64,000 nt of DNA from Candidatus Heimdallarchaeum aukensis (GTDB lineage: Archaea > Asgardarchaeota > Heimdallarchaeia > Heimdallarchaeales > Heimdallarchaeaceae): assembly GCA_021513695.1 (NCBI GenBank), contig CP084166.1:2656001-2720000 (forward strand), in the 5' to 3' direction. This document shows positions 9,395 through 23,365 of this stretch, piece after piece (position 1 is the first letter of the stretch; each line of letters starts with the position of its first letter). Under the pieces are notes generated by a model. It was given only the letters and a program-made list of their open reading frames with translations. It had not been told where the DNA came from and did no database searches. The position numbers were made by a program, and so were the translations under genes.

Positions 9395-10801
9395 TTAGAT
9401 AAAATCTCCCGTTTCTATTTTCTGTGGGAGGTAGAAGTTTGTAATAAATTGTGGGTCACGTGCATTTAATGCTTGTATTTCTGCTTTATAACCTGTATTT
9501 ATTAGGATTTCAAGTTGTTCTTGCCATTTTGGTTTTCTCTTTACGAACTCTTCTTCAAGCATTAACTTTGATCTTCTTATGTCTTTTTGAGTCATTTTGA
9601 TTAGTGCTTCTCTAGGAATATCAAATCCACTTTCAGGTTTTAGATCACTTGGGAGCAAACCTAACCATTTAATATTTGGCACTGCAAGATGGGTTGATTC
9701 GAAACTAAGAGCTTTACTTCCAACGCTATATACTCTCATGATTTCGAATCCGTAAGGGTCAGCATCCATAATGGCAAGAATAGGTAATTGTAAGTCATCA
9801 TTTATTTTCTTTAGAAACTGTCTTGTTGCCATGTCAGGTTGACCTTTAGCTGTAACTAAAATGCTTGGTACATAATCGTAAAAATGGTCTTCTGCTAACC
9901 TGTTAAAAATAGCATCTTTTTCAATAACTAAACAAAATTCAGCATCACTTTCTAAATCTTCGATGTCATCTATATTTGGTGAAATAGCTTTTCCTGAACC
10001 GATAGCTCTACAATCTATAAGATCACCCTTTTCCTTGAATTGTAACTTTCCTACAACAATACCTTTAGACGATGCACTAACATTTAGTGAAGTCCTCGTA
10101 GCTTGTATCATTGCTCCTAAATCTTCAATAAGAGAGTCTGATACTGCTTGTTTCTTAAACGCATTCACATTCATGTAGAAAATATCTCTTTTTGTACTGT
10201 GAATATCACGTGATAGTATGTCATGAAGAAGTCTCATTAATATTGACATTTGTTCAATCGTGCTTACAGAGGATAAACTCCTAAATTGGCGTTCTATCAT
10301 TTGTCTACCAATAAGTACTAATTCTTGTTCTTCATCAAAACCAATATTTCTCTTTCCTCTTGAAGGAATTTTAAAACTAGCTTCATCAGGTTTGTTAAGT
10401 GCTTCATTCAAAAATAATAATGCTGCTTCAACAATTTTATTTTTAGCTTTTTCCGAAGACATTGTTTCTACATTAGTTACACCATAAGGTAACTCATAAT
10501 CCTGCAATAAAGTAAGTTCGTTTCTAAGTTTCCTTATTTTATCAACTGGAACTTTTCTTTTTATTTCAATTCTCATTAATTCTTTCTTAAGAGGATAATT
10601 ACCTAAGGTTTTACCTTTCTCTAGAGGATACCACTTCTTTCCGCTTCTCAAAAAGAGTACAAAAGATCCTTTTTTAAGTTCAAATTCTTCTTGTAATATT
10701 TGAAATAATTCATTTATCTGAATACTGTTATCAAAACTCATTTTTACTTCAGTTGAAGGCAATATTGTTGCATTTTTTACTAAAAAATTATAGTTTACCA
10801 T
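9395..10801 (-). CDS. top6A: DNA topoisomerase VI subunit A (Spo11 family) with N-terminal extension
   Basis: It has the catalytic-tyrosine motif STKRDIFY (Tyr209 by my count), the Toprim Glu in CLVIEKDAIF, and the Toprim DxD in IMDADPYGFEI. At 468 aa it is about 100 aa longer at the N-terminus than the ~370-390-aa archaeal enzymes. Confidence 0.9.
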   Translation of the reverse strand: MVNYNFLVKNATILPSTEVKMSFDNSIQINELFQILQEEFELKKGSFVLFLRSGKKWYPLEKGKTLGNYPLKKELMRIEIKRKVPVDKIRKLRNELTLLQDYELPYGVTNVETMSSEKAKNKIVEAALLFLNEALNKPDEASFKIPSRGKRNIGFDEEQELVLIGRQMIERQFRSLSSVSTIEQMSILMRLLHDILSRDIHSTKRDIFYMNVNAFKKQAVSDSLIEDLGAMIQATRTSLNVSASSKGIVVGKLQFKEKGDLIDCRAIGSGKAISPNIDDIEDLESDAEFCLVIEKDAIFNRLAEDHFYDYVPSILVTAKGQPDMATRQFLKKINDDLQLPILAIMDADPYGFEIMRVYSVGSKALSFESTHLAVPNIKWLGLLPSDLKPESGFDIPREALIKMTQKDIRRSKLMLEEEFVKRKPKWQEQLEILINTGYKAEIQALNARDPQFITNFYLPQKIETGDFI

Positions 10802-10810
10802 TTTTCCACC
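10802..10810 (-). promoter_or_regulatory. 9-nt top6B-top6A spacer containing a Shine-Dalgarno-like GGTGG (translational coupling)
   Basis: The minus strand reads ...ACA AAA TGA GGTGGAAAA ATG GTA... The top6B stop is at 10811-10813 and the top6A ATG is at 10799-10801. Confidence 0.6.
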
Positions 10811-13800
10811 TCATTTTGTACTCCTTTTTTTGGTTTCAATTTTTGTATCAGCTGAAATTTCATCTAAAGTTGTTTGTTTTGTTCGCTTTGAAGTTGTTGT
10901 TTTCTTTGTTGTTGTACTTGGTCTCTTTGTTTTAGTAGTCGTTGTTTTCTTTGTTGTTGTACTTGGTCTCTTTGTTTTAGTAGTCGTTGTTTTCTTTGTT
11001 GTTGTACTTGGTCTCTTTGCTTTGGTAGTCGTTGTTTTTACAAAAGGAATTGTCTGTTTGATCTTCTTTATATCATTATAAGTCATCTCTAGCTTTCCTT
11101 CAAGCTGAGATGTCGGATAAGCAATAAATTCTCCAATTGTATTAATTCCAAGTGAGTTCAACTTATTTCGTATTTGCTGTTTAACATCTAATTTTTCTAT
11201 TGGCTCTTCTATTAACTTTAGTAATTTTTGAACATTTTTGTTTTTGAAAATATCTTTTCTCTTCGTACGATTATCAGCAAATATCAACTCTTCAAACGAA
11301 GATATCCCTATTTCTTTTAATTTTGATATAATCTCACTGCTCATAAATGGTGTACTTTTCACTATTTGCGTTTTACCCTTCTTTGCAATTTTTAGAGATT
11401 GAGGAGTTAAAGTTGCAAAATAGTTTCTTAACTGCCTTTCTGTTATATTAGTAATTTCAGTCAGTTCGTTAATTTTTGTATTAAAAACATCCCAGAGAGA
11501 ATACTTCTGTTTATGGTATAATTTAAAGATACTGTTTGGTTTATCCTGCATTAGTGCATAGAATGAGTAAATTGGGTATGAAAGAAGTTCTTTTAATGTG
11601 GATATCTGTCTGATTGATAACTCTGTTTGTTCTTTAATTCTCTTATCAGAAACTGATAAATGTATAATGTGGGAATACCCACCGTTTTCCAATATGGATT
11701 TTTCAGTATCTGAAAATAGACCTAAATCTTTAATCCTATAGCTATTTAGTTCTAATTGCTCTTTCACTTTAGTCATGTTAAGAGAGTTAAGAAGTTCAGT
11801 AAATTCTGCACGTTGTTTTTCTGTAAATTTAATCTGTAAATCATCTATATTTTGTAGGAAGAAAAGATCATAAACTTGTTCATAACCTCTTTTTGCTAGT
11901 TGAAAAAGTATATTCTTTTGACGTATAAATAATGCTAATGATGCTCTAAAACAAGAAAGAACATCTTTTACTTTCATGGATAAGTCGCTGATATTTTTCT
12001 CTTCAAACAAAGCAATTAGTTCACCTAATGAATTTATATCATTTTCATTTAGCTCGTTAATTATTTCTTTATCGTTTACAAAATCTATAAGTTTAGAATT
12101 GCTTTGAGATGCTAATGAATCTAGATCATGGAACGGAATTTGAGATAAAAGGTTTTTAAGGACAGTTATGTTTGAAGATTTATTTAATAATAGTAAATCA
12201 TAAACTGTTTTTGTATTACTTTTTAGTAGAAGCCTAAATGTTTCCTTACTCTCAAAGACAAGTGGAAGAGAGTAAATTTTTTGTTCAATTCTTAAACGGA
12301 GTTTTTCCGTGATCTTCCATCTCTTTGAAGTTTTTGATTTTGATACAATATTAAACACGTAAGCCTCTTCTATAGAGAAAATGTGACCTTGACTTAAAAC
12401 ATCTAATTCAGTTTTATCCAAAATTGTTTCAGGAATGGGGGTTAACTTAGATGCTAGAGTACGTAATGTTTCTAGTGATAGATTTCGAATCTGACGTATT
12501 AGTCTATTATCGTCGATTATCTGACTTAACTGGTATCTAGGTTTTAAAATTAAATCTCCTATTGTTAAGTTGCCATATTGTTTGAATTTCTCTTTATTTT
12601 CAAAACTTTCATTGACTAGCAAAATAACATGCCTATTTAGAAATTGTAAGTATTCATTAAAGTGTAAAGTTATGGTCTCTGGGAAAGAACTTGTAATTTT
12701 GTCAAATTGCTTTTTATCATATTTCTCCAAGAGAAGTAAGGATTCAAGGGTATATTGGACTTTTAGTTCATCTTTTTCAGGAAGATTCAACTTTTCTTCG
12801 AATTTGGTTGGTTTTGAGAAAATAAATGAGTAAATATCAAGTAGTCTCTTGGATACTTGAGAATTTACTTTTAGAGAATCATGATGTATATTGAAGAAAA
12901 CTAATTGTTGAAAACTTAAGTCTGGGAGTTTTTCGTCAAAATATCGCGAAGAGAGTTTTTGTAAAAGTCCAATTTTTGTTCTTAATGAAGGTGAAAGGTT
13001 AGAAACAACATCAGTGTTTTCAAAGAGATCAAGATAATTCTTAATACCATTTTCTCTCAATTCAGCAATATCAAAATCTTGTAGAACAATGTTTGTTTTT
13101 AGAGCAGGGGGGTTGCTTATTCTAGAAATAGTAATCTTACTAAGAAAAGTGTCAACTTCACTAATGTTTGTGCTTATAATTTTTGCAAGAGCTGGCTTAG
13201 ATAACAAAAGCATTTCTTGTAGAGTACTTACTTTGGATAAAAGTTTTAACCAATTTTCGAGAGGAAGTTGTGGGAAAGAAATCAGATAAATAGATTTGTT
13301 TAATATCTTTTGAACATTATTTCGTAATTTACTTCTCAATTTACAGTGTTTTTTTGATAAATCATAAACCAAATCGTCAATAACTGTATAATATTTCAGT
13401 AATTTTTTCTTTGTTTCACTATCAAACAGCATAATATTGGAAAGTTGAACTCTTTTATCTCTCAATTTTTTAATTGTTTTAACATTCAAAGTTGAGAGAA
13501 CATGATTAACTTTCTCAAGTTGTTTTTCTGATAAGAATGAAGAATATGAAATAGGTTTAATTAGTAAATCCTTTAGTGTTTCGATTTTATGTTCATTCAG
13601 TTTTTCTACTTCTTTTTCAGTGAAATCTGTTATTATAGAGACAGAACTGTTAAGGAGGTTTAGAATCTCTAATCCTGTTTTAGTAAGAAACTCTTTGTTC
13701 ATGTATAAAACAGAAATAAAATCAATGATATTTGAGATCTCTGGAATTTCAATGTTTTTGCTGAATAAGTTTTTTGAATTAATAGTACCAAGAAAATCTT

Positions 13801-16800
13801 TTGTCTTTAACGTAAGAGATAATGTTTTCTTTTTATCTTTAATCAGATTACTAATTATGGTGTTATAATCACCAAAGCTGACTAGTTGATCGTTTTTAAC
13901 AAGATCTCTGATGGTGAAAAGATTGTTGTCAAAGTATTTTGTTTCAATCTCTTCAAATTTTAAGGAGTTAATAGAGCTTAAGAATAGGATTGATGTATCT
14001 AAAATTTGTTTTATTTTTGTTCTTATTTTTTCTATCTTTTTAATATCATAAAGCCAGTTGTATATTGAATTCTCTTCTAAATCTGAAAAACTATAGAATC
14101 CATAAGATAACAAAGTAGATTTTTCTTTTTCACTAAGAAATGGTAAATCTACAAAATGATTTGGCTTATCTTTTTCAATTGTTTTCTTGATTTTATCAAT
14201 CTTTATTGATGAGCGTAGTTTCAATATTTGATCAAGTTTAATCCTTGATTCTTTTGCGACTGTTTTATACGGAATAAGCAGTAGATCTGCGATAGTGTAT
14301 GTTCCACCTTTTTTAAGGTTAGTTTCTATTTTCTCTTCTAGTCCTAAATATCGAATATTGGCTAGTAAATATGGGCTAATTTCTGCAAATATGCTCTTAT
14401 CTTTTAGATTAACATCTCCAAGTAATTCTTGATAAGATAAGTACCCAAGTTTCATTGCTTTTTCTTCATATGAACCTAAAGGAGGAATAAAACTTTCAAG
14501 ATGTAGATTTTTTAACATTGATAGACTTGATAAAATTTCATCAACCATTGCATCATCTAGATTTTGGATAGAGGAAATAACATCTATAATGTAAACTAAC
14601 TTCTTGTTATAACAAGATTTTATTGTATCTAATGTCAATATAGGTAGATTGTTTATGTTTCTACTTAATTTCATTCTAATATCTTTAATTTCTTCAATGT
14701 ATGAATCTGGTAGGCTTAAGAAAAACTCTTCAGGGAAGTAATATAGATATTCAATTGAGAAAACTCCCAAACTGTATAGCTTTTGAACTAATGACTTATT
14801 TAACTTTAAGTTTGCAATATCAAGAGTAGAGAATTGAAGGGAAGATAGATTCCTAATGAAAAGAGAATTGTTCTCTTTTATGGCTTTATCCAATTTTGGG
14901 AGAAGGGTTTCCCACAGGTGAATAGGAATATGAAGGTAGTCATAATATGTTTTTTTATTTTTTAAAGATTCATTAATATTTTTTGTTGAAATCCCGAGTA
15001 TACGCTCAATTGTCTTTATTGGTGTAAAGAGAATAGGTATATTCACTATCAACTTTTCTTTTTCATCTTTGTTTATTTCTAATTGATCTACATCATGATA
15101 AAATAGTTGAATTAAAGAGTAAATCTCATTTTCATTAAGATATTCGATTGTAGAAACCTCGGGTTTTTTGATTGTTTTTGGACTAGTACCTTCTTTAGCT
15201 TCACGTTTTTTAATAAGTGGAAGTTTACCCTCTTTTGTTAGTTCTTTTTCAGTTAAGGATGGTAAAAGGTTTAAGTCGATTCCATAGAGTTTAAGTTCAG
15301 AAACAATATTTCTTTTACTAATCTGTAATTTAATAGTGTTTATCTCTTTATACTCTATTTCAAATAATTTACCCAAAGAAACTGATGGAATAGATAAAAA
15401 TTCAAGTATAGTGTTAATCTTATTTTCAAAGAGAATAGAGTTTTGTTGCAATGAAAGTGAACTTAAGAAGGAAATTGGAGTTGTTCCAAACAATGAGAGA
15501 GTCTTTTTTATTGATGATAAATTCTTATCTTCTGAACTGTAATCCTGTAAACAAAGAAGTTGATCTAAATACTCAATATTAATCTTTTTTAGATATAGCT
15601 TCTGTTGTTTGGACAAAAATTTTACATCACGTAACTTAATTGCCCATTTAGGTATTTGAAAATCAGATAAAGAACTTACTACATATTCTGCTAGTTCTAT
15701 GTCAATATTGTCTGGAGGAAGAAGTAATAAATCAAGAATAAGTTTTTTATCTTCCTTCATCAAATTTCTCAAAAACTCAAGCTGATCTATTTGAGAAAAT
15801 TTATCTAACCAAATAATTGGATATTTTACCATACTTGTAAGAGAATTAGAATTACTAAAGAGAATTTGAGAACTTATGACAAATGGTTGAGGAAGCAGAT
15901 CTAGTAGATTAATAACATCGGGAGAGGTCTTAATGTCTAGTTTATCACTTTTATTTGATAGAATGTCCAGATGATCTTTGGGAATTAAGTTAACTAATTT
16001 TTCTTTAGAAAATTCTTTTACAAAACGGATAATCTCACTTCTAGCATTTGATGGAATAGTTCTCTTTTCTTCAGAGCTAAGAGTAAGAAGTTCAATAATA
16101 TTTTTAACTCCATTTTTCCATAAATCAAGTTTGACGTCTAAACTCATGTCTGAGATAGAAAAAATATTTAGACATAAACCATAGATTAGTTCTTCAAGTT
16201 TAGCAATACTACTCGCTTTTTCTATTTTTTCACTTTCTGAGAATATAAGCAAGTATTCTGGTACCAACCCAAAGATATCTTCAAATGATGCTTTTGAAAG
16301 GTTGAATTTAAAGTCTGTGAGTGTACTTATTAATTCTTTATCTTCTTCAAGAATAGGTATGCCTGAACTAAGGCTTATGTTTCCCTTTCTTTTATCTTTT
16401 AACTCTTCAGGAATGGAATTGAATATCTTCTTAAGATCTTTTTCTCTAACTATAAAGAGGTCAATAACTCGTAGAATGCGGTTTTTTGCAAGACTACGTT
16501 TAATAAAGCGTGAAAGGTTTGAAATTCTGAAGACTGAAGAGTTACAAAGAGAGAGAAAATTATCAATATTTTCCTTAAATTCTTCAGAAAATGATTTTAT
16601 TTGATAACAAAGACCATAAAGATCTTGAACTGTGTCCTTATTCAGTTTTTGTAAGCTAAGAAGATTTCTCTTTGACAATAACGCAAGAGATTCAAGTTTT
16701 ATTCCTTTTTCTTCAACTTCATTTAGTATTTTTTTAACTGAAATATTTTCTTTTATTTTGATAATTTCAGTTTCAGGTATGTCTAAAATTAATGATATCG

Positions 16801-19800
16801 TAGTGATGTCTTCTGTTAAGAAGGTGAGTATATCCCCGACGCCAGAATAAACAAGTTTTAACATTTGTTCTAACTCTAAATCCAAGAAGAATACAGATGA
16901 GAGATACAACTTTGCTTCTTTAAATACATTCATGTTCACTAGATATGGGTATGATTTTCTGATTTCAGACATTCTAGAAATGAAGTCTTGAATTGAATAA
17001 ATCCCTAATTCATGTAATTTTTCTACATATTCACTTGTTATTGATGGACAATTTTCTAGAGGAATTGCAAAACGAAGTCTTTTCTCTTTTAATTCATCTA
17101 AAGATAACAAGTCAAATATATGAAATTCATCATAAATAGGATTGTTTAGAATTTGTGATAATTGTCCTTTTTCAAAAAGAGACAAATCGATTACTGAGTG
17201 AATATCCTGTAATTCTAGTTTCTTTATTTCTTCAAAAGACAAGAAACTAAGAAAAGTTATTGAACCTGATAATATTTCTTTAAATTCTCTATATTTCTCT
17301 TGCTTTAAGATACTGGATGCACCCATTCTTACTCCAGCATAGTACAAAGTTTCTATGTCTGATATTCCTATATCTCGTAATTTAGAAATTTCAGTTTCCG
17401 TGATGAGAGAAGAAGGCATAATAGGGTGAGATCTTGCTTTGTGTAATTCAACAATTTCACTATAAGATAGATTTTCCTTTATTTCATTAATCCTTTTTTG
17501 TGTTTCATTAGATATTTCAGAAAGTTTTTTGGTTGGTGTTGAATAAAAGTCTATTAATGTTGTAATTGAAGATCTGCTAAGAGGAAGAGCAAGATTAACG
17601 TCCAAGTTTAGTGAAGAAATAGGAATAGACAAATCACCTATAAGTTTATCTAAACTATTTTCTTCACCTAGTTTGTTTTTAATTTCCAAGAGAGGAGAGT
17701 TCTCCTCGAATTCAAGTTCAAATAAGCTCCCTAAAGTAATTATAAAGTATTTATTCCTCATATCTTCACTTAAAAGATTGAGAAAAGGTGTAATTCCAAG
17801 TGGTAATTCAAAAACTGAACGAATAAGTGTAATGTTACATTTTTCAAAAGCTAATTGTCTTTCAAATTCGCTGAGGGTTTTTATCAAATCTGTGCTGGAA
17901 ATAACATCAAGTAATGTTAACTCTTCAATATCTTCCAGAATAGTAGAAAAGAAGTCTTTATTGTAAGCAGTTGCAGAAAGAAAATCAAAGTAGTGATAAG
18001 CTCTCAAGTCAATTAATTTAGAAGAATAGTCTGAAACAGTTCTAAATAGCGTTCTATCCGTTAAATCGCTATCTAATATGAATATTAAATGGTAAAGGTG
18101 GGTTATTTGGTTTTGATTAAAAATAGTCAAAGAATAATCTGAAATCTCCTGAAAAATCCGTAAAGGAAGTGATAATATTTTCTTTAATGTGAAAACTTTT
18201 CTCCAGATTGATGAGTTTCTGTCGATGAAAACTTCATCGGGACAGTAGAAAAGTTCTTGAATTGATTGAAATCCTTCATAACTGTAAATTGTTTCTCTAC
18301 TTAGCGTTCTTTGTTCATTTTTGTCAAAAAGTCTAGTTTCATATGCATAGATTGCTCGCGCCTCATATTCTTCTCTTATTCTCTGTGATGTTAAAATGTC
18401 AATTATTTCCTTTGTTTCTTTTGTTGTAATGTTTAGGATATTACTGAGTTTAACAGATGAAGTAGAAACGAAATCAACTATAGTTAATATACCCGCTTTT
18501 CTCAATTCTTCAGTTTGTGAAAAAGAGATATTTGGTAAGAAATAAACAGGGAGACTGAAAAAGTAAAAAATTTCACCAAGATCTAGACTTCTCTTAATAT
18601 TATCAAAACGTTCGTCGGGAATCCCTGTTCTTTCCATTAGAACTTTAGATGACGTAAGTAGAAAACCTAACAATGTATTTATTTTGTTTTTCTTTAAGAG
18701 CTTAATTATATCTGGATCTAACATGTCTGACAAGTGCTTAAATCGTAAATTTAGCACATTTTTTAAATTCTGAACTATCTCCCATGGAATTGTTCTTATT
18801 GCCCATTTTTCTTGCTGAGTAGAAAAGTATAGGTCCTCAATGGTAAAGATGTTGTTAGTTTCTAAAATTTCTACTATCGATGGTCTAAAGATATCAAGTT
18901 CAGAAATATCTGTTCCAGTTTCACTAATCCTGATATTTTTCTTGTATTTTTTAGCTTCTTCTAAATCAATTTTTAAAATAGAAGCGATTGTTTCATCACT
19001 AACAAGGAAAAAGTCAATGATTCTTCTGATTCCAGTTTTTCTTAGAGCATTCAGCTGTTCATGGGATAAGCTTGTTATTTCAATTTCTTCAATTTCTTCC
19101 TCTTGTTTTGTTTCTTCATTTAATATCTTCTTCTTTGTGGTTTTTTCCCAAGTAACTAGCGTCAGGGGAGAACGCAATAGTTTCTTGAATTTTTCAATTA
19201 CACCCCATTTTATTATGGGAGCACCAAAAGTGTAAGGGTGTGTTAAATAAAATAGCTGGTCTATAGAATTGTAACCAATAACAAGTAAAGAACGGATTTC
19301 TTCAGGTGAAAAACGTTCTGAATTTTCAAAATCAAAGGAGATTATTGATTCATACTTACCACTAGATACTTTCTCGTAGAATGGTTGTCCATCTCTATTT
19401 ACATCAAAATTGTTTATTAACTCATCAAAATTCTTCTTTGAAAAATTAAGTATCGTGCTTAATTCATCAAAACTGTAATTTAAAAATTGGTGCAGAGAGT
19501 AAATCTTTTTTGAAGCTAATACTTCATAATCTTTAAGTTTCAAGCTTTTTATACGAGTGATTGGTAATTGCAAAAACTGATAGAAATCAATTATTTCGTG
19601 AGATAACAAAACTTTTTCTGCAAACTCATCAGTATCTTTAAGATTTTTACTATTTATATTGTCGTAGAGTTCAAGTAAAATTTTTTTGTCTTTATTTTTT
19701 GAAATTTCTGTCTCAATAAATACAGGTGTAAGTTGAAGGAAATCTCTTATTGTATTTACATCCTTGGTTTTGAGCTTAAGAAGAGCATCATTCAATGACT

Positions 19801-22800
19801 TTGCTTTAGATTTTGTTGGGGCTAACTTTGCTAAAAATATTAGATCTTCATTCATGAATTCTCTAAAGTTATTCATCTTAGTTAAAAGATCTGAAATCGA
19901 CGGAAGTTCTTCTTCAATATAAAAGTAAAACAACTCTTGTATTGTTGTTTGTTGTTCATTGAATTGCTTAACCAATCTTGGAAAGTGTTTTTTTATTATT
20001 TTTAAATTTCCTTTGTATCTTTCTTTATTTTTTGTAATCTTGTTAGCAGATATACTTTGTTTTAGACGTATAATTTCTTGTTCGTTAAGGTTTAATACCA
20101 AAGAGAGTTCTTTATTACTCCATATTAGAAACCTGCCTATACAGTTTACTCCAATTTCATTCAAAACGTTAATTTTCTCGTTTAGTTCAGGAAAAGCAAA
20201 AATCAAGGGAGTTCGTAATAGTAAGTAATCTGAAACATATTGTTTCTTTGTTTGTTCATCTTTAAATTCAAAATTCTCTGGTTGAGAATATAGAATGTCC
20301 TCTACTGTATAAATTTCATATTTACTTGCTTTGTTCTTCAAAGATAGAAAGTTAGGAATGGGCGTACCTATCTTTTTCTTTATTCTTGCAATCTCGCTTT
20401 TTAATAAACCCATTTCGCGTAATTTTTTCGATGGTGTAATCAAGAATGATGTGGAAGTAAATATCTTGTTTTCTAGCAATTTTTCTTCAGCTTTTTCACT
20501 AATCACTTTTAAGTGTGATAGGTCAAGGTCTTTATTTACTTCATTAAGATGAGAAAGAATGCGAAACTTTGATTCTTCTAATAGACTATCAACAAAAACA
20601 CTTAGTTCTTTTTTCATTAACGTTCTTAATTTAGCGTTTGCATATTGTGCTAAGGTTTCTATATTCGCTGATTTAAGACTGTCTAGTATGTTTTTTCTTA
20701 TATTGTCATCTATGGTTGATATTAGTCCTAGTTTGTTAAGAGGGATAGATCTCTCGCTGTTAGCTAGAATAGTGAAAAATCTAGTATAAATAGAACGCTC
20801 TAATTCTTTGATTTCTAAAAGGTCTTTAGTTGGCGTTTTAAGAAAATTATCTATTGTCTCTATCTTTCTTCTATGAAAAGCATTTTTAGAATATCCATCT
20901 ATCCAATCAGGTTTCATTTTTGTAATGTTGACCTTTAGAAAATCAGGAAACTTTTCTGAAACATGTGAAAATACCTTTTTAACGTAATCAATCAACATTT
21001 CTGTTAAATCATTATCATATTTAAACGAAAAAGGCTCATTGAACTTATAAATAAAATCCTCTAACCCCTTAAACTTATTTGAAAAGTTGGGATAACTTGT
21101 TTTTATATAATTGAAATCTGGATACAGAAATTCTTCTTTTAACTCTGAATAATCAGACATAGTTTCTAAATTAAATTTAAATTCTTCGATAAAGATCGAC
21201 AACTCTACTGTTTCTTGGCCATCTTGAGATTTTGTAACTTCGTTAATTAGCTTAAATTTGTTATCTTCTATTAGACGTTCTACTAAACCTTCAACTAAAC
21301 GCAATTGTGTAGCTTCTGTAGCTAAATAATGATAGCTATTTTGAATCCATCTTTGATATAATGCTTCATTGAAACTACTACTAGTTCCTTGACGTGCAAA
21401 CCTCTTATCTATCATTTTATTTGTTAATGCTTTTAGTGGGAGTTCAGGGCTCAACTTAGACCTGTCTAGTTCATAAATTGTTCTTTGTTTTATTCTTGAA
21501 ACTTCTTTTTTTGAAAGATTCAAAATAGGAGCTAGTTCTGAAACAGGTATGGAAAGAAACTTTCCAATTGTTAAAATATCACTTTTAGCACAACTTTTCT
21601 TGTATTTATCAGGGCACCACACATTAAGTTCAAAAATGGGTGTCCCTAAAGGAACAAAATTTCTAATTTTCTTTTTTGCTCCGTGAGCTAGAGCTGCTGC
21701 AACTTTATATTTTTCTTTATTTATGTTTGTATAAACTATTTTTTCATTCTCTAAAATTCTTGCGAGGTTATCAATTACAACAGGTGCTGATCGTACAAAA
21801 CGGGATAATCGTGCATGTTCTCTTTTCCTTCTTTTTGCTCTACTAAGGAATGTTTTAAGTCTTCTACCAAGTTGTTGTAAAGCTAACCTAATCTCTTCTT
21901 CAATTTCTGGGACGGTTGAGATATACTCCTTACTCGTTTCAGGAAAAGGTATTTTTGTACTTACAATTGATACTGCAATCGCGAGAGGATCTGATTGTCT
22001 TGTAAGACCGTATTCACTCCAATTAAGCGAAGAAACTACTTTTGTAATAACGTCATTTCCCGCACCAAAAATTAAAGGAATTCTATTTGCATATCGATAA
22101 ATTATTTTGTTGTCGACTGACGTGCTTCCTTTTTGTTGAGCATATTTTGATACTCCCCCCCCATAACCTATTGCTGCTTCAACGATAAAAGGATGACCAG
22201 AATAAGCTTTTGGAGGACGAGAAATCGCTTCTACAAACTCTGGTTCAAGTTCTTTTTCTAAACCTTTTCTTAATCTTGCTGCTCCTAAAGGAGAAAGAGC
22301 ATCACCTTGTGGAGCATCAAATCTAAAGATTCTATCTCTTTTTCTTTTTATTTCTTTAGCCTCTTGGTAGGCTTTGATAAATCCTTCATGAACTATTCTT
22401 CTAATTTCTTTAGAAGTAAGGTCGCTAGGCTTTTTATTAGGGTCAATTTCTAAAATCTGAAAGAACTCTTCAGCTACTTCTTTTCTTACTCCCATAAAAT
22501 CTTTTGACAGAAAATCAACTAGATTTTCTGCAGAAGTAGCAGCAATTTTTGCTTTAAACTGAGTGATATCACATCCAAATGGGTGTAACTGAATTACTTT
22601 AGGAGGGTCGGGCATATCATCTACTACTTTTTGGAAAACTAATGTTTCACTTGTTCCTTCTTCATCTCCTGGAAGAACTACAGTAAAACTTGCATAGGGA
22701 GTAATTATAGCTAATTGTTTAAAATACTCCTTAATACTGTTCTTTGCTAGATTCCAAGCTCCAGTAAAAGTTATACTTATCTCAGTACCGCTAGTGTGCA

Positions 22801-23365
22801 AATATCCTGGGTCATCTGGATTATATTCGTGTTGTTCCATAATAACAGGTTCATTTTTTTCCAAGTTGATCATTAAATGAACTTCTGTAGTCATTTCTTC
22901 CATGAAGTATCTGCTCTTTATCCTTGCAGGAAGATCTACAGATGACATAGAATGTAGTAGACACATCTTGGCTCCTAAACCAAATCTGCCTCTAGTTTGA
23001 ATTACTCCATATTTTGTTCCTGTTAATACTCTACCAAAAAGATTTGGAATCTCATGACCAGGAACACCTACACCGTTATCTCTACATGTTAACTGAAGAA
23101 AATCAAGATGTTTTTCTAACTGTTTATATCTGGTAATATCTAATAATTCATTAATTTCAGAACTTGATAACTTCCTTAATTCAATATATATTTCAGGGTT
23201 CACACCTAGTTTTTCTGCTGCATCTAAGCCATTCTCGACCAATTCTCTAACAGAGGTAAAAACAGCTCGCATCGAGTTGCCAAAACCTGCAATGGCCTTA
23301 TTTTCATTGAAGAAAGCAGCTGCACTCATTTTTCGTGTTTTATTTTCTTCAGCCACAAAATTCAC
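10811..23365 (-). CDS. top6B: giant DNA topoisomerase VI subunit B fusion protein (Top6B core + ~3,500-aa HhH-like repeat array + basic K/T-rich tail), 4,184 aa
   Basis: This is a single uninterrupted 12,555-nt ORF. The N-terminus is colinear with Top6B: FFNENKAIAGFGN..RAVFTSVRELVENGLDAA (Bergerat N-box), RDNGVGVP (G1), TRGRFGLGAKM (G2), HPFIVEAAIGYGGG and YRYANRIPLIFGAGNDV (transducer). The start is uncertain. The track's GTG 23365 lies inside the AAGGAGTG SD-like string, so GTG 23356 (8 nt after GGAG) or ATG 23329 are more plausible. Confidence 0.9.
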   Translation of the reverse strand: MNFVAEENKTRKMSAAAFFNENKAIAGFGNSMRAVFTSVRELVENGLDAAEKLGVNPEIYIELRKLSSSEINELLDITRYKQLEKHLDFLQLTCRDNGVGVPGHEIPNLFGRVLTGTKYGVIQTRGRFGLGAKMCLLHSMSSVDLPARIKSRYFMEEMTTEVHLMINLEKNEPVIMEQHEYNPDDPGYLHTSGTEISITFTGAWNLAKNSIKEYFKQLAIITPYASFTVVLPGDEEGTSETLVFQKVVDDMPDPPKVIQLHPFGCDITQFKAKIAATSAENLVDFLSKDFMGVRKEVAEEFFQILEIDPNKKPSDLTSKEIRRIVHEGFIKAYQEAKEIKRKRDRIFRFDAPQGDALSPLGAARLRKGLEKELEPEFVEAISRPPKAYSGHPFIVEAAIGYGGGVSKYAQQKGSTSVDNKIIYRYANRIPLIFGAGNDVITKVVSSLNWSEYGLTRQSDPLAIAVSIVSTKIPFPETSKEYISTVPEIEEEIRLALQQLGRRLKTFLSRAKRRKREHARLSRFVRSAPVVIDNLARILENEKIVYTNINKEKYKVAAALAHGAKKKIRNFVPLGTPIFELNVWCPDKYKKSCAKSDILTIGKFLSIPVSELAPILNLSKKEVSRIKQRTIYELDRSKLSPELPLKALTNKMIDKRFARQGTSSSFNEALYQRWIQNSYHYLATEATQLRLVEGLVERLIEDNKFKLINEVTKSQDGQETVELSIFIEEFKFNLETMSDYSELKEEFLYPDFNYIKTSYPNFSNKFKGLEDFIYKFNEPFSFKYDNDLTEMLIDYVKKVFSHVSEKFPDFLKVNITKMKPDWIDGYSKNAFHRRKIETIDNFLKTPTKDLLEIKELERSIYTRFFTILANSERSIPLNKLGLISTIDDNIRKNILDSLKSANIETLAQYANAKLRTLMKKELSVFVDSLLEESKFRILSHLNEVNKDLDLSHLKVISEKAEEKLLENKIFTSTSFLITPSKKLREMGLLKSEIARIKKKIGTPIPNFLSLKNKASKYEIYTVEDILYSQPENFEFKDEQTKKQYVSDYLLLRTPLIFAFPELNEKINVLNEIGVNCIGRFLIWSNKELSLVLNLNEQEIIRLKQSISANKITKNKERYKGNLKIIKKHFPRLVKQFNEQQTTIQELFYFYIEEELPSISDLLTKMNNFREFMNEDLIFLAKLAPTKSKAKSLNDALLKLKTKDVNTIRDFLQLTPVFIETEISKNKDKKILLELYDNINSKNLKDTDEFAEKVLLSHEIIDFYQFLQLPITRIKSLKLKDYEVLASKKIYSLHQFLNYSFDELSTILNFSKKNFDELINNFDVNRDGQPFYEKVSSGKYESIISFDFENSERFSPEEIRSLLVIGYNSIDQLFYLTHPYTFGAPIIKWGVIEKFKKLLRSPLTLVTWEKTTKKKILNEETKQEEEIEEIEITSLSHEQLNALRKTGIRRIIDFFLVSDETIASILKIDLEEAKKYKKNIRISETGTDISELDIFRPSIVEILETNNIFTIEDLYFSTQQEKWAIRTIPWEIVQNLKNVLNLRFKHLSDMLDPDIIKLLKKNKINTLLGFLLTSSKVLMERTGIPDERFDNIKRSLDLGEIFYFFSLPVYFLPNISFSQTEELRKAGILTIVDFVSTSSVKLSNILNITTKETKEIIDILTSQRIREEYEARAIYAYETRLFDKNEQRTLSRETIYSYEGFQSIQELFYCPDEVFIDRNSSIWRKVFTLKKILSLPLRIFQEISDYSLTIFNQNQITHLYHLIFILDSDLTDRTLFRTVSDYSSKLIDLRAYHYFDFLSATAYNKDFFSTILEDIEELTLLDVISSTDLIKTLSEFERQLAFEKCNITLIRSVFELPLGITPFLNLLSEDMRNKYFIITLGSLFELEFEENSPLLEIKNKLGEENSLDKLIGDLSIPISSLNLDVNLALPLSRSSITTLIDFYSTPTKKLSEISNETQKRINEIKENLSYSEIVELHKARSHPIMPSSLITETEISKLRDIGISDIETLYYAGVRMGASSILKQEKYREFKEILSGSITFLSFLSFEEIKKLELQDIHSVIDLSLFEKGQLSQILNNPIYDEFHIFDLLSLDELKEKRLRFAIPLENCPSITSEYVEKLHELGIYSIQDFISRMSEIRKSYPYLVNMNVFKEAKLYLSSVFFLDLELEQMLKLVYSGVGDILTFLTEDITTISLILDIPETEIIKIKENISVKKILNEVEEKGIKLESLALLSKRNLLSLQKLNKDTVQDLYGLCYQIKSFSEEFKENIDNFLSLCNSSVFRISNLSRFIKRSLAKNRILRVIDLFIVREKDLKKIFNSIPEELKDKRKGNISLSSGIPILEEDKELISTLTDFKFNLSKASFEDIFGLVPEYLLIFSESEKIEKASSIAKLEELIYGLCLNIFSISDMSLDVKLDLWKNGVKNIIELLTLSSEEKRTIPSNARSEIIRFVKEFSKEKLVNLIPKDHLDILSNKSDKLDIKTSPDVINLLDLLPQPFVISSQILFSNSNSLTSMVKYPIIWLDKFSQIDQLEFLRNLMKEDKKLILDLLLLPPDNIDIELAEYVVSSLSDFQIPKWAIKLRDVKFLSKQQKLYLKKINIEYLDQLLCLQDYSSEDKNLSSIKKTLSLFGTTPISFLSSLSLQQNSILFENKINTILEFLSIPSVSLGKLFEIEYKEINTIKLQISKRNIVSELKLYGIDLNLLPSLTEKELTKEGKLPLIKKREAKEGTSPKTIKKPEVSTIEYLNENEIYSLIQLFYHDVDQLEINKDEKEKLIVNIPILFTPIKTIERILGISTKNINESLKNKKTYYDYLHIPIHLWETLLPKLDKAIKENNSLFIRNLSSLQFSTLDIANLKLNKSLVQKLYSLGVFSIEYLYYFPEEFFLSLPDSYIEEIKDIRMKLSRNINNLPILTLDTIKSCYNKKLVYIIDVISSIQNLDDAMVDEILSSLSMLKNLHLESFIPPLGSYEEKAMKLGYLSYQELLGDVNLKDKSIFAEISPYLLANIRYLGLEEKIETNLKKGGTYTIADLLLIPYKTVAKESRIKLDQILKLRSSIKIDKIKKTIEKDKPNHFVDLPFLSEKEKSTLLSYGFYSFSDLEENSIYNWLYDIKKIEKIRTKIKQILDTSILFLSSINSLKFEEIETKYFDNNLFTIRDLVKNDQLVSFGDYNTIISNLIKDKKKTLSLTLKTKDFLGTINSKNLFSKNIEIPEISNIIDFISVLYMNKEFLTKTGLEILNLLNSSVSIITDFTEKEVEKLNEHKIETLKDLLIKPISYSSFLSEKQLEKVNHVLSTLNVKTIKKLRDKRVQLSNIMLFDSETKKKLLKYYTVIDDLVYDLSKKHCKLRSKLRNNVQKILNKSIYLISFPQLPLENWLKLLSKVSTLQEMLLLSKPALAKIISTNISEVDTFLSKITISRISNPPALKTNIVLQDFDIAELRENGIKNYLDLFENTDVVSNLSPSLRTKIGLLQKLSSRYFDEKLPDLSFQQLVFFNIHHDSLKVNSQVSKRLLDIYSFIFSKPTKFEEKLNLPEKDELKVQYTLESLLLLEKYDKKQFDKITSSFPETITLHFNEYLQFLNRHVILLVNESFENKEKFKQYGNLTIGDLILKPRYQLSQIIDDNRLIRQIRNLSLETLRTLASKLTPIPETILDKTELDVLSQGHIFSIEEAYVFNIVSKSKTSKRWKITEKLRLRIEQKIYSLPLVFESKETFRLLLKSNTKTVYDLLLLNKSSNITVLKNLLSQIPFHDLDSLASQSNSKLIDFVNDKEIINELNENDINSLGELIALFEEKNISDLSMKVKDVLSCFRASLALFIRQKNILFQLAKRGYEQVYDLFFLQNIDDLQIKFTEKQRAEFTELLNSLNMTKVKEQLELNSYRIKDLGLFSDTEKSILENGGYSHIIHLSVSDKRIKEQTELSIRQISTLKELLSYPIYSFYALMQDKPNSIFKLYHKQKYSLWDVFNTKINELTEITNITERQLRNYFATLTPQSLKIAKKGKTQIVKSTPFMSSEIISKLKEIGISSFEELIFADNRTKRKDIFKNKNVQKLLKLIEEPIEKLDVKQQIRNKLNSLGINTIGEFIAYPTSQLEGKLEMTYNDIKKIKQTIPFVKTTTTKAKRPSTTTKKTTTTKTKRPSTTTKKTTTTKTKRPSTTTKKTTTSKRTKQTTLDEISADTKIETKKRSTK
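10883..11035 (-). repeat. 45-bp tandem repeat encoding the (KRPSTTTKKTTTTKT)n basic tail of the giant ORF
   Basis: Plus-strand copies at 10911-10955 and 10956-11000 are identical 45/45. Flanking copies (11001-~11035 and ~10883-10910) are diverged. The protein reads TTTTKAKRPSTTTKKTTTTKTKRPSTTTKKTTTTKTKRPSTTTKKTTTSKRTKQTT. Confidence 0.9.
11048..21730 (-). repeat. protein-level array of degenerate ~60-70-aa helix-hairpin-helix units (RNA polymerase alpha-CTD-like / RadA N-domain-like) within the giant ORF
   Basis: The recurring pattern is P-h-x-x-L.....L...G-I/V-x-T/S-h-x-D/E-h-h...S..-L..IL.h...E...I. Examples are LRKAGILTIVDFVSTSSVKLSNILNITTKETKEIIDIL, LNEIGVNCIGRFLIWSNKELSLVLNLNEQEIIRLKQSI, LRKTGIRRIIDFFLVSDETIASILKIDLEEAKKYKKNI, LKKNKINTLLGFLLTSSKVLMERTGIPDERFDNIKRSL, LKEIGISSFEELIF and PIEKLDVKQQIRNKLNSLGINTIGEFIAYPTSQLEGKLEMTYNDIKKIKQTI (last unit, nt 11048-11203). 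I recognised roughly 35-45 units by eye. The repeats are degenerate at the DNA level. aa ~640-890 look non-repetitive and aromatic-rich. Confidence 0.6.
21731..23365 (-). other. portion of the giant ORF corresponding to a canonical Top6B (GHKL ATPase, H2TH, transducer), aa 1 to ~545
   Basis: The motifs listed for the parent CDS apply here. The last recognisable Top6B-like helix is EIRLALQQLGRRLKTFLSRAKRRKREHARL (aa ~491-520, nt ~21806-21895). The domain boundary is approximate. Confidence 0.75.

What the first reader, a model, noticed from the sequence alone, without database searches (positions are those of the whole stretch)
9395..10810. Top6A carries a ~100-aa N-terminal extension and is translationally coupled to the giant B subunit
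Seen in the sequence: the catalytic Tyr (STKRDIFY) is residue 209 by my count. In the well-studied archaeal Top6A proteins it lies near residue ~100-106 (established knowledge). About 100 extra residues therefore precede the CAP/5Y domain, including ...KKGSFVLFLRSGKKWYPLEKGKTLGNYPLKKELMRIEIKRK..., a small beta-rich-looking module of unknown type. The B stop (10811-10813) and A start (10799-10801) are separated only by GGTGGAAAA. Inference: both partners of this Topo VI have been remodelled. The A-subunit extension may dock onto, or regulate, the enlarged B subunit.
Basis: partly seen in the sequence, partly recalled or inferred. Interest (0 to 1): 0.5.

Follow-up and report, generated by a model that had tools for sequence, protein, structure and literature searches.

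The report
Ubiquitin-like domain fused to Asgard Top6A
The extra ~100 residues at the start of this Heimdallarchaeal topoisomerase VI catalytic subunit are a built-in ubiquitin-like domain plus one helix, kept in most Asgard lineages and always found beside a giant B subunit; I found no paper that describes it.

Summary
Top6A (9395-10801, minus strand, 468 aa) has its catalytic Tyr at residue 209. Solved Top6A structures and six curated full-length family models align only from residue about 110-120 onward.

The extension has two parts:
- Residues about 2-84 are a ubiquitin-like beta-grasp domain. The AF2 model has pLDDT 84, the top Foldseek hits are ubiquitin and ISG15, hhalign to ubiquitin gives 94.5%, and a profile of the extension retrieves eukaryotic polyubiquitins.
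- Residues 87-100 are a helix that Ubl-less Asgard relatives also carry.

The domain has no C-terminal Gly-Gly, so it is a fixed domain and not a conjugatable or cleavable ubiquitin. M1 is the start: it has a GAGGTGG Shine-Dalgarno site, and starting at M21 would delete two strands.

The architecture is clade-wide (Heimdall, Kari, Hod, Borr, Sif, Hermod, Thor, Odin, Loki). In nearly every locus with enough flank, and in every one where B is linked and complete, it sits beside a Top6B of 2,181 to more than 4,000 aa with a homologous tail. Ubl-less relatives have B of 534-1,123 aa.

The function is inferred. The most likely role is a docking module at the A/B junction. Tight B-A coupling is ordinary. 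I rate it a new variant of a known enzyme, of moderate interest.

The parts
9395..10801 (-). top6A coding sequence, 468 aa plus stop (TAA at 9395-9397)
   Evidence: ORF list and translation. Pfam TP6A_N 3.6e-19 and Toprim 2.4e-59. PDB Top6A matches down to 1.6e-57.
10550..10801 (-). Ubiquitin-like beta-grasp domain, residues 1-84 (strands 3-10, 17-24, 47-53, 56-59 and 76-82; helix 29-40); no C-terminal Gly-Gly
   Evidence: AF2 model, pLDDT 84. Foldseek against PDB: top hits are ubiquitin and ISG15, E 4e-5, target TM-score 0.73-0.84. hhalign to ubiquitin: 94.5%, E 7.6e-8. A profile of the extension retrieves polyubiquitins. 8 of 24 orthologues match Pfam ubiquitin.
10502..10543 (-). Amphipathic helix, residues 87-100, shared with Ubl-less Asgard-type Top6A (the Asgard/eukaryote N-terminal helix)
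   Evidence: AF2 helix at 87-100 and 87-97. tblastn matches of Ubl-less relatives begin at query residues 82-88. Alignment. Brinkmeier et al. 2022 (PMC9665070).
10478..10489 (-). PYGV motif, residues 105-108; P105 is invariant; it links the helix to the canonical Top6A N-terminus
   Evidence: P105 is invariant in 24, 43 and 85 sequences.
10079..10258 (-). Winged-helix / 5Y-CAP domain, residues 182-241, with catalytic Tyr209 (codon 10175-10177)
   Evidence: Pfam PF04406. T203, K204, R205, F208 and Y209 are invariant.
9416..9937 (-). Toprim domain, residues 289-462, with invariant acidic residues E294, D346 and D348
   Evidence: Pfam PF21180, 200.6 bits. Invariant columns.
10806..10812 (-). Shine-Dalgarno-like GAGGTGG; it overlaps the top6B stop codon and ends 4-5 nt before the top6A ATG
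   Evidence: Sequence. In the window-wide scan, 13 of 32 long ORFs carry such motifs, and there is none before M21.
10811..23365 (-). top6B, 4,184 aa from GTG 23365 (4,172 aa from ATG 23329): GHKL and transducer core in about the first 520 aa, then a ~3,600-aa tail of helix-hairpin-helix-type repeats
   Evidence: ORF. Pfam Topo-VIb_trans 3.5e-57, RAD51D_N 8.7e-17 summed over many weak stretches, RNA_pol_A_CTD 2.2e-6.
21266..21790 (-). Top6B residues 526-700, just after the transducer stalk. This segment is conserved across Asgard giant B subunits and is a candidate contact region for the A N-terminus (inference).
   Evidence: Mean column identity 0.53-0.63 over 15 B sequences from Heimdall, Loki, Odin, Thor, Hod, Borr, Sif and Hermod, falling to 0.23-0.35 after residue 725.

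Best explanation
Shown: the ~105-residue extension is made of two elements. The first is an integral, non-conjugatable ubiquitin-like (beta-grasp) domain at residues about 2-84. The second is a helix at residues 87-100 that other Asgard-type, and reportedly eukaryotic, Top6A proteins also have. The protein is translated from M1 as the second gene of a top6B-top6A operon, 9 nt after the B stop, from a GAGGTGG ribosome-binding site. The Ubl-Top6A architecture is inherited across most Asgard lineages, and in almost every examinable locus it lies beside a Top6B with a very long, homologous helix-hairpin-helix tail.

Inferred mechanism: in solved Topo VI structures the N-terminal part of A clasps the C-terminal hairpin that ends the B transducer stalk. 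The Ubl should therefore sit at the A/B junction, which is where the clade-specific B extension begins. It most likely acts as a protein-protein docking module that contacts the conserved post-stalk segment of B (about residues 526-700). In that role it would stabilise or position the start of the tail next to the DNA-cleaving core, and could influence the stalk-mediated coupling between the ATPase and cleavage.
For: Identity of the domain:
- AF2 gives pLDDT 84 for residues 1-115 with beta-beta-alpha-beta-beta-beta order, and pLDDT ~90 for the same region in the full-length model, which has pTM 0.83.
- In the Foldseek PDB search, 63 hits have E<=1e-3, and the top 50 listed are almost all ubiquitin, ISG15 or ubiquitin variants.
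- hhalign to ubiquitin gives 94.5%.
- The profile search of 1.84 billion proteins returns polyubiquitins with 76-residue periodicity.
- Loki-type orthologues pass Pfam's own thresholds for ubiquitin and Rad60-SLD.

Start codon: a Shine-Dalgarno site precedes M1 and none precedes M21. Strands 1 and 2 lie upstream of M21 and are conserved, with N/D at position 10 in 42 of 43 sequences.

Domain boundary: Ubl-less relatives align from residue 82-88.

Link to B:
- Nearly all Ubl-bearing loci with enough flank have a B tail homologous to this one: 2,181-2,570 aa when complete, more than 3,318 aa when running off the locus, and 4,184 aa here.
- The six Ubl-less loci with a B gene have B of 534-1,123 aa with no tail similarity.
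- Residues 526-700 of B are conserved.

Position at the junction: query residue 111 aligns to residue 9 of 2zbk_A. Structural descriptions of M. mazei Top6 say the A winged-helix domain binds the B C-terminal hairpin after the stalk (PMC13040014).
Against: - No A-B complex could be modelled, so no contact has been shown.
- The co-occurrence of Ubl and tail may stem from one ancestral event, so it is weak statistical evidence for a direct interaction.
- In one relative A is not next to B (L001). In another, only a 902-937-aa tail-like ORF lies upstream (L002/L063).
- Ubl length is constant while B length varies two-fold.
- The Ubl evolves much faster than the core: 31% against 57-59% mean column identity.
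- The window protein itself gets no Pfam ubiquitin hit.
Confidence: 0.5

Rival explanations
1. The Ubl is an accessory DNA-contact element. It would be a basic domain placed beside the exit path of the sharply bent G-segment arms, adding to the DNA contacts of the B stalk and helping the enzyme hold or sense bent or crossed DNA.
For: The domain is basic in most lineages: median pI 9.5 and net charge +4, and pI 9.7 and +6 in the window, against 6.6 for ubiquitin. Relative to ubiquitin it has a lineage-specific 5-residue hairpin insertion (GKKWY, 54-58) in which K55 is conserved in 34 of 43 sequences. Positions 81-82 are basic in 100% and 77% of sequences. In M. mazei Top6-DNA structures the DNA arms contact positive clusters at the C-terminal end of the B stalk, near where the N-terminus of A lies (PMC13040014).
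Against: The charge is not conserved: pI ranges from 4.7 to 10.7, and the lowest values are acidic. Ubiquitin-like domains are typically protein-binding.
Confidence: 0.2
2. The Ubl is a recruitment handle, like the integral Ubl domains of eukaryotic shuttle or adaptor proteins. It would be recognised by ubiquitin-binding partners of the Asgard ubiquitin, Cdc48, proteasome or ESCRT systems, for example to localise Topo VI or to remove enzyme trapped covalently on DNA.
For: The domain is closer in sequence and fold to ubiquitin and ISG15 than to archaeal ThiS/MoaD/SAMP-type beta-grasp proteins. It occurs in the archaeal group known (established knowledge) to encode eukaryote-like ubiquitin machinery. 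It is tethered by a lower-confidence linker, with pLDDT 58-79 around residues 100-112.
Against: No partner was identified and no neighbouring ubiquitin-system genes were seen. By my hand mapping from the hhalign alignment, which is approximate for strand 5, the positions equivalent to ubiquitin H68 and V70 are charged here (R77, E79). That argues against canonical ubiquitin-receptor binding.
Confidence: 0.15
3. The Ubl is a ubiquitin precursor. As in eukaryotic ubiquitin-ribosomal-protein fusions, it would be cleaved off to give free modifier and a normal-length Top6A.
For: It is an N-terminal fusion of a ubiquitin-related domain to a housekeeping protein, which superficially resembles the Ub-L40 and Ub-S27a fusions (established knowledge).
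Against: There is no Gly-Gly or any glycine at the domain end. The sequence there is IEIKRKVPVDK, and the consensus across 43 sequences is [KR][RK]x[VI]x[L]. The helix that follows is continuous with the domain in the models.
Confidence: 0.02
4. The extension is an annotation artefact, and the true start is an internal Met that gives a normal-length Top6A.
For: In-frame Met codons exist at residues 21, 76 and 114.
Against: The region is conserved as protein in more than 100 orthologues from 97% down to about 45% identity, with the same length (Tyr at 203-220 in nearly all). It folds confidently. M1 has a strong ribosome-binding site and the internal Mets have none.
Confidence: 0.01

Closest known systems
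Canonical archaeal Top6A (S. shibatae 2zbk_A, M. mazei 2q2e_A/9o0g, M. jannaschii 1d3y)
   Same: Residues 111-468 share the winged-helix/5Y-CAP domain with the catalytic Tyr, the Toprim domain with invariant acidic residues, and the overall fold (target TM-score 0.85, rmsd 2.5-2.7 A). Like them, it is encoded next to top6B.
   Different: It carries about 105 extra N-terminal residues: a ubiquitin-like domain plus a helix. It scores below the equivalog cut-offs of all six NCBIfam Top6A models, which may be why NCBI records name these proteins 'hypothetical protein'.
Asgard/eukaryotic-type TopoVIA with an additional N-terminal helix (Brinkmeier et al. 2022, PMC9665070)
   Same: The helix at residues 87-100 and the downstream PYGV-type motif correspond to the extra N-terminal helix reported for Asgard and eukaryal TopoVIA. 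Ubl-less Asgard relatives (Njord and others) start at this helix.
   Different: The main text of that paper never uses the word ubiquitin and lists only an 'Nter helix'. Here a complete beta-grasp domain precedes the helix. Whether eukaryotic TOP6A or SPO11 retains any trace of it was not tested.
Ubiquitin / ISG15 / Rad60-SLD (ubiquitin-like beta-grasp superfamily)
   Same: It shares the fold and detectable sequence similarity with them. The core positions correspond, for example F50 to ubiquitin F45 and L49 to I44.
   Different: It has no C-terminal Gly-Gly, is not free-standing, has a 5-residue insertion between strands 3 and 4, and is basic. It is an integral domain and not a modifier.
SMCHD1 N-terminal Ubl next to a GHKL ATPase (PMC6620310)
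   Same: This is a precedent for a built-in ubiquitin-like domain that serves as a structural stabiliser of a GHKL-family machine (title and abstract listed).
   Different: In SMCHD1 the Ubl is on the ATPase polypeptide itself. Here it is on the DNA-cleaving partner subunit. There is no evidence of common descent of the fusion.
Top6B C-terminal extensions in gyrase-encoding archaea (Villain et al. 2022, PMC9348778)
   Same: That work reports lineage-specific Top6B C-terminal extensions, including in Asgard archaea. In Odin and Thor relatives gyrase genes lie directly upstream of top6B-top6A.
   Different: It does not discuss a matching change in the A subunit. The tails here run to thousands of residues of helix-hairpin-helix-type repeats, whereas the euryarchaeal extension is a ~100-aa Ig-like domain.

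Membership tests
Top6A/Spo11 (type IIB topoisomerase A subunit) | Winged-helix/5Y-CAP domain with the catalytic tyrosine | tested here: met
   PF04406 at 68.8 bits against a cut-off of 26. Y209 lies in the invariant TKRDxFY motif.
Top6A/Spo11 (type IIB topoisomerase A subunit) | Toprim domain with conserved acidic metal-binding residues | tested here: met
   PF21180 at 200.6 bits. E294, D346 and D348 are invariant in 85 sequences.
Top6A/Spo11 (type IIB topoisomerase A subunit) | Partner GHKL/transducer B subunit | tested here: met
   The upstream ORF carries HATPase_c and Topo-VIb_trans (7.5e-58) and lies 9 nt away.
Top6A/Spo11 (type IIB topoisomerase A subunit) | ATP-dependent strand-passage activity | not testable with these tools
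   This needs biochemistry.
Ubiquitin-like beta-grasp domain | beta-beta-alpha-beta-beta-(3-10)-beta topology of about 75-85 residues | tested here: met
   AF2 secondary-structure order and pLDDT 84-90. Foldseek target TM-score 0.73-0.84 to ubiquitin and ISG15.
Ubiquitin-like beta-grasp domain | Sequence-profile similarity to the ubiquitin family | tested here: met
   hhalign 94.5%, E 7.6e-8. The profile finds polyubiquitins. 8 of 24 orthologues hit PF00240, and two (P0072, P0083) score above its gathering cut-off. The window protein alone gives no Pfam hit.
Ubiquitin-type modifier or cleavable ubiquitin-fusion precursor | C-terminal Gly-Gly at the end of the domain for processing and conjugation | tested here: not met
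   Residues 78-90 read IEIKRKVPVDKIR, and no glycine appears among the three commonest residues at positions 76-90 in 43 sequences.
Translationally coupled operon pair | The downstream start lies within a few nucleotides of the upstream stop, with a ribosome-binding site inside or at the end of the upstream gene | tested here: met
   TGA-GGTGGAAAA-ATG, with GAGGTGG overlapping the stop. In most relatives the B stop and A start are within about 20 nt or overlap.
Translationally coupled operon pair | Translation of the downstream gene depends on translation of the upstream gene | not testable with these tools
   This needs reporter or Ribo-seq experiments. An internal promoter cannot be excluded in this 31.5% G+C DNA.

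The most novel reading that the evidence does not exclude
The Ubl is a genuine ubiquitin-system handle on a topoisomerase. Asgard ubiquitin-binding, Cdc48 or proteasome-type factors would recognise it to localise Topo VI or to extract enzyme trapped covalently on DNA. [quoted passage not shown] That would make it a prokaryotic forerunner of ubiquitin/SUMO-dependent control of type II topoisomerase and Spo11 complexes.
Probability: 0.1. Interest if true: 0.85.

Novelty: new variant of a known kind. Interest (0 to 1): 0.55.

Why it matters
Topo VI is the archaeal ancestor-type of plant Topo VI and of Spo11, the enzyme that starts meiotic recombination. Recent work places the conserved Asgard Top6A as sister to the eukaryotic proteins (PMC12680538).

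Most Asgard lineages carry a ubiquitin-like domain permanently fused to the DNA-cleaving subunit, inherited together with a B subunit that has a tail of thousands of residues of DNA-binding repeats. This defines a distinct Asgard form of the enzyme. It gives a concrete, testable handle (delete residues 1-84) on how the A/B junction and the tail work.

It also raises the question of whether the eukaryotic enzymes lost this module and replaced it with separate partners.

Practically, these genes are widely labelled 'hypothetical protein' and fall below the curated Top6A family cut-offs.

Tried and rejected
- Internal start (M21, M76 or M114): rejected on conservation, fold and ribosome-binding site.
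- Pfam PF20768 'all-beta domain in Topo VI alpha' as an existing description of the extension: rejected, because it maps to residues about 251-286 between the two core domains.
- Cleavable ubiquitin precursor: rejected, because there is no Gly-Gly.
- Programmed read-through fusing B to A: the B stop and the A start are in the same frame here (TGA GGT GGA AAA ATG). In relatives the gap is a multiple of three in only about 8 of 18 measurable loci, close to chance, so I treat it as coincidence.
- The idea that Ubl size tracks B size: rejected. The Ubl is constant while B ranges from 2,181 to 4,184 aa.
- Foldseek against the AlphaFold database: the library was unavailable.
- Supplementary files of the two most relevant papers: not held.
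- Five of the seven literature searches combined topoisomerase VI, Top6A or TopoVIA with Asgard, ubiquitin or ubiquitin-like. They found no description of this domain. This does not prove that none exists.
- A-B complex modelling: not possible with the tools.

Full report
**Observation**

The minus-strand ORF 9395..10801 encodes a 468-aa protein. STKRDIFY occupies residues 202-209, so the catalytic tyrosine is Y209. Pfam finds the type IIB winged-helix domain at 182-241 and the Toprim domain at 289-462, and nothing before residue 182.

The solved Top6A proteins align only with the C-terminal three quarters. S. shibatae 2zbk_A residue 9 pairs with query residue 111, and M. mazei 2q2e_A residue 16 pairs with query residue 119. 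Six curated NCBIfam full-length Top6A models begin to match at query residues 110-134. The junction with the upstream gene is also as stated: TGA at 10813-10811, then GGTGGAAAA, then ATG at 10801.

**What the extension is**

More than 100 homologues have the same length and the tyrosine at 203-220. They are labelled Heimdallarchaeaceae (99% and 97% identical, so the window comes from a Candidatus Heimdallarchaeum relative), Kariarchaeaceae, Hodarchaeales, Thor-, Odin- and Promethearchaeota.

Several lines of evidence identify a ubiquitin-like domain:
- Two hits carried precomputed Pfam ubiquitin and Rad60-SLD matches. In a scan of 24 diverse members, 8 hit ubiquitin (best 2.8e-6), 5 hit UN_NPL4 and 2 hit Rad60-SLD. 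Two Loki-type members score above Pfam's own thresholds for ubiquitin and Rad60-SLD.
- An AF2 model of residues 1-115, built on a 43-sequence alignment, has mean pLDDT 84. Its order is strand 3-10, strand 17-24, helix 29-40, strands 47-53 and 56-59, strand 76-82, then helix 87-100. This is the ubiquitin beta-grasp order.
- Foldseek against the PDB returns ubiquitin, ISG15 and ubiquitin variants almost exclusively, with E down to 4e-5, target TM-scores of 0.73-0.84 and rmsd of 2.1-3.2 A.
- Profile-profile comparison of the 43-sequence alignment with human ubiquitin gives 94.5% probability, E 7.6e-8.
- An HMM of the same alignment, run over 1.84 billion representative proteins, pulls out eukaryotic polyubiquitins with 76-residue periodicity. 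I verified this by reading two of them.

Compared with ubiquitin, the domain has a 5-residue insertion (GKKWY, 54-58) between strands 3 and 4 and no C-terminal glycine. It is usually basic, with median pI 9.5, 9.7 in the window, and a range of 4.7-10.7. It is therefore an integral ubiquitin-like domain, and neither a modifier nor a cleavable precursor.

**Boundary and start codon**

A scan of one genome per GTDB species returned 80 loci, which I analysed by script. Every complete Top6A ORF in loci L001-L072 has the Ubl (HMM E 1e-16 to 1e-38). The 13 more distant Asgard-type loci are Njordarchaeia, several MAGs labelled Heimdallarchaeota, Sifarchaeum subterraneum and one labelled Nitrososphaerota. 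They lack the Ubl, have the tyrosine at 136-154, and match the query only from residue 82-88 onward.

Their N-termini start at the helix that follows the Ubl here. The extension is thus Ubl (1-84) plus the extra N-terminal helix that Brinkmeier et al. 2022 reported for Asgard and eukaryal TopoVIA.

M1 is preceded by GAGGTGG with a 4-5 nt spacer, one of the best ribosome-binding matches among 32 long ORFs in the window. M21 has none. M21 would also remove strands 1 and 2, which are conserved, with N/D at position 10 in 42 of 43 sequences.

**Relation to the B subunit**

The upstream ORF (10811..23365, 4,184 aa) has the GHKL and transducer core in its first ~520 residues. A long tail follows, giving summed RAD51D_N and RNA-polymerase-alpha-CTD matches, which are helix-hairpin-helix-type modules.

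In relatives, B is 2,181-2,570 aa in Loki, Odin, Thor, Hod, Borr, Sif and Hermod lineages. It is more than 3,318 aa, running off the 10-kb flank, in Heimdall and Kari lineages. Its tail is homologous to this one (phmmer E <= 1e-25). B stop and A start are usually within about 20 nt or overlap.

The six Ubl-less loci that include a B gene have B of 534-1,123 aa with no similarity to this tail.

There are exceptions among Ubl-bearing genomes. In one, A is unlinked from B (L001). In another, only a 902-937-aa tail-like ORF lies upstream (L002/L063). Two more loci have a broken upstream ORF: L020 has a complete 424-aa tail-like ORF, and in L046 B is split into a 3,018-aa ORF and a separate core fragment.

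So 'both partners remodelled' is right, and it is a trait of the clade and not of this genome. Ubl length does not follow B length. The B segment just after the stalk (residues 526-700) is conserved at 0.53-0.63 column identity across lineages, while later parts fall to 0.23-0.35.

**Mechanism**

What is shown is the domain identity, its boundary, the start codon, the operon layout, the phyletic distribution and the co-occurrence with the tailed B.

What is inferred is the function. In solved Topo VI structures the N-terminal part of A binds the helical hairpin that ends the B stalk, and bent DNA arms run along that stalk (PMC13040014; alignment). The Ubl, attached about 25 residues upstream of the first residue that aligns with canonical Top6A, should therefore lie at the A/B junction, where the B tail begins.

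I judge a docking or stabilising role towards the post-stalk part of B as most likely. A DNA-arm contact role and a recruitment-handle role are the main rivals. The full-length AF2 model (pLDDT 87, pTM 0.83, Ubl pLDDT ~90, linker 66-79) is compatible with a positioned but flexibly linked domain. No complex could be modelled.

**Comparison with the literature**

The core is an ordinary Top6A, with target TM-score 0.85 to M. mazei and S. shibatae structures. I found three relevant prior observations:
- an extra N-terminal helix in Asgard and eukaryal TopoVIA (PMC9665070);
- C-terminal Top6B extensions in gyrase-encoding Asgard archaea (PMC9348778);
- Asgard Top6A treated as a eukaryotic-signature protein because of an internal motif (PMC12680538).

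The main texts of PMC9665070, PMC12680538 and PMC11302465 contain no occurrence of 'ubiquitin'. PMC9348778 did not turn up in any search that required that word. Five searches found no description of a Ubl on Top6A. Automated Pfam annotation does flag ubiquitin on a few Loki-type orthologues.

**Verdict**

This is a new variant of a known enzyme family: real, conserved, structurally assigned with high confidence, and functionally open. The tight B-A spacing and Shine-Dalgarno site are ordinary.

Noticed in passing
window 10799-10813: The top6B stop and the top6A start are in the same reading frame (TGA GGT GGA AAA ATG), so read-through of one stop codon would fuse B to A through a Gly-Gly-Lys linker. 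In relatives the gap is a multiple of three about as often as chance predicts.
   Followed up: partly
window 10892-11038 (minus strand, last ~50 codons of top6B): There is a near-perfect 45-nt tandem repeat (3.3 copies, 97% match). It encodes a basic Ser/Thr-rich tail (KRPSTTTKKTTTTKT, three times) just before the B stop codon.
   Followed up: partly
window 23329-23365: The mechanical top6B ORF starts at GTG 23365, but an ATG at 23329 gives MSAAAFFNENK, which looks like the usual Top6B N-terminal strap. The true start is probably the ATG (4,172 aa).
   Followed up: no
L004 69-9982 and L005 1-9989: In Odin and Thor relatives, gyrA (and gyrB in the Thor locus) lie immediately upstream of top6B-top6A on the same strand, forming a topoisomerase gene cluster. 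In the window the upstream neighbour is instead an LVIVD-repeat protein (23504-26440).
   Followed up: partly
L002/L063 7274-9984 (CP070760.1): In this complete 'Heimdallarchaeota' chromosome, only a 902-937-aa ORF homologous to the B tail, with no GHKL or transducer core, lies upstream of the Ubl-Top6A. Genes on the opposite strand lie before it. B may be split, or its core may be encoded elsewhere.
   Followed up: no
L001 (1.6-Mb contig, ERZ25073866): A Ubl-bearing Top6A (58% identical) lies with no top6B within 10 kb on either side, so the B-A operon is not universal.
   Followed up: no
P0111 and P0118 (L061): Some orthologues carry a ~25-residue, arginine-rich insertion (ITTRRRRKIKELGRG) in the loop between strands 1 and 2 of the Ubl, which moves the tyrosine to about 237.
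   Followed up: no
L074, L076, L077, L079, L080: A group of MAGs labelled Heimdallarchaeota has Ubl-less Top6A (Tyr about 142-145) next to a ~1,110-1,120-aa Top6B whose extension is unrelated to the window's tail. This may be a second, intermediate form of Asgard Topo VI, or a paralogue.
   Followed up: partly
window 9398-10801: All six NCBIfam Top6A equivalog models score far below their cut-offs (for example 256 against 531 bits). This may explain why NCBI records name these Asgard proteins 'hypothetical protein'.
   Followed up: yes
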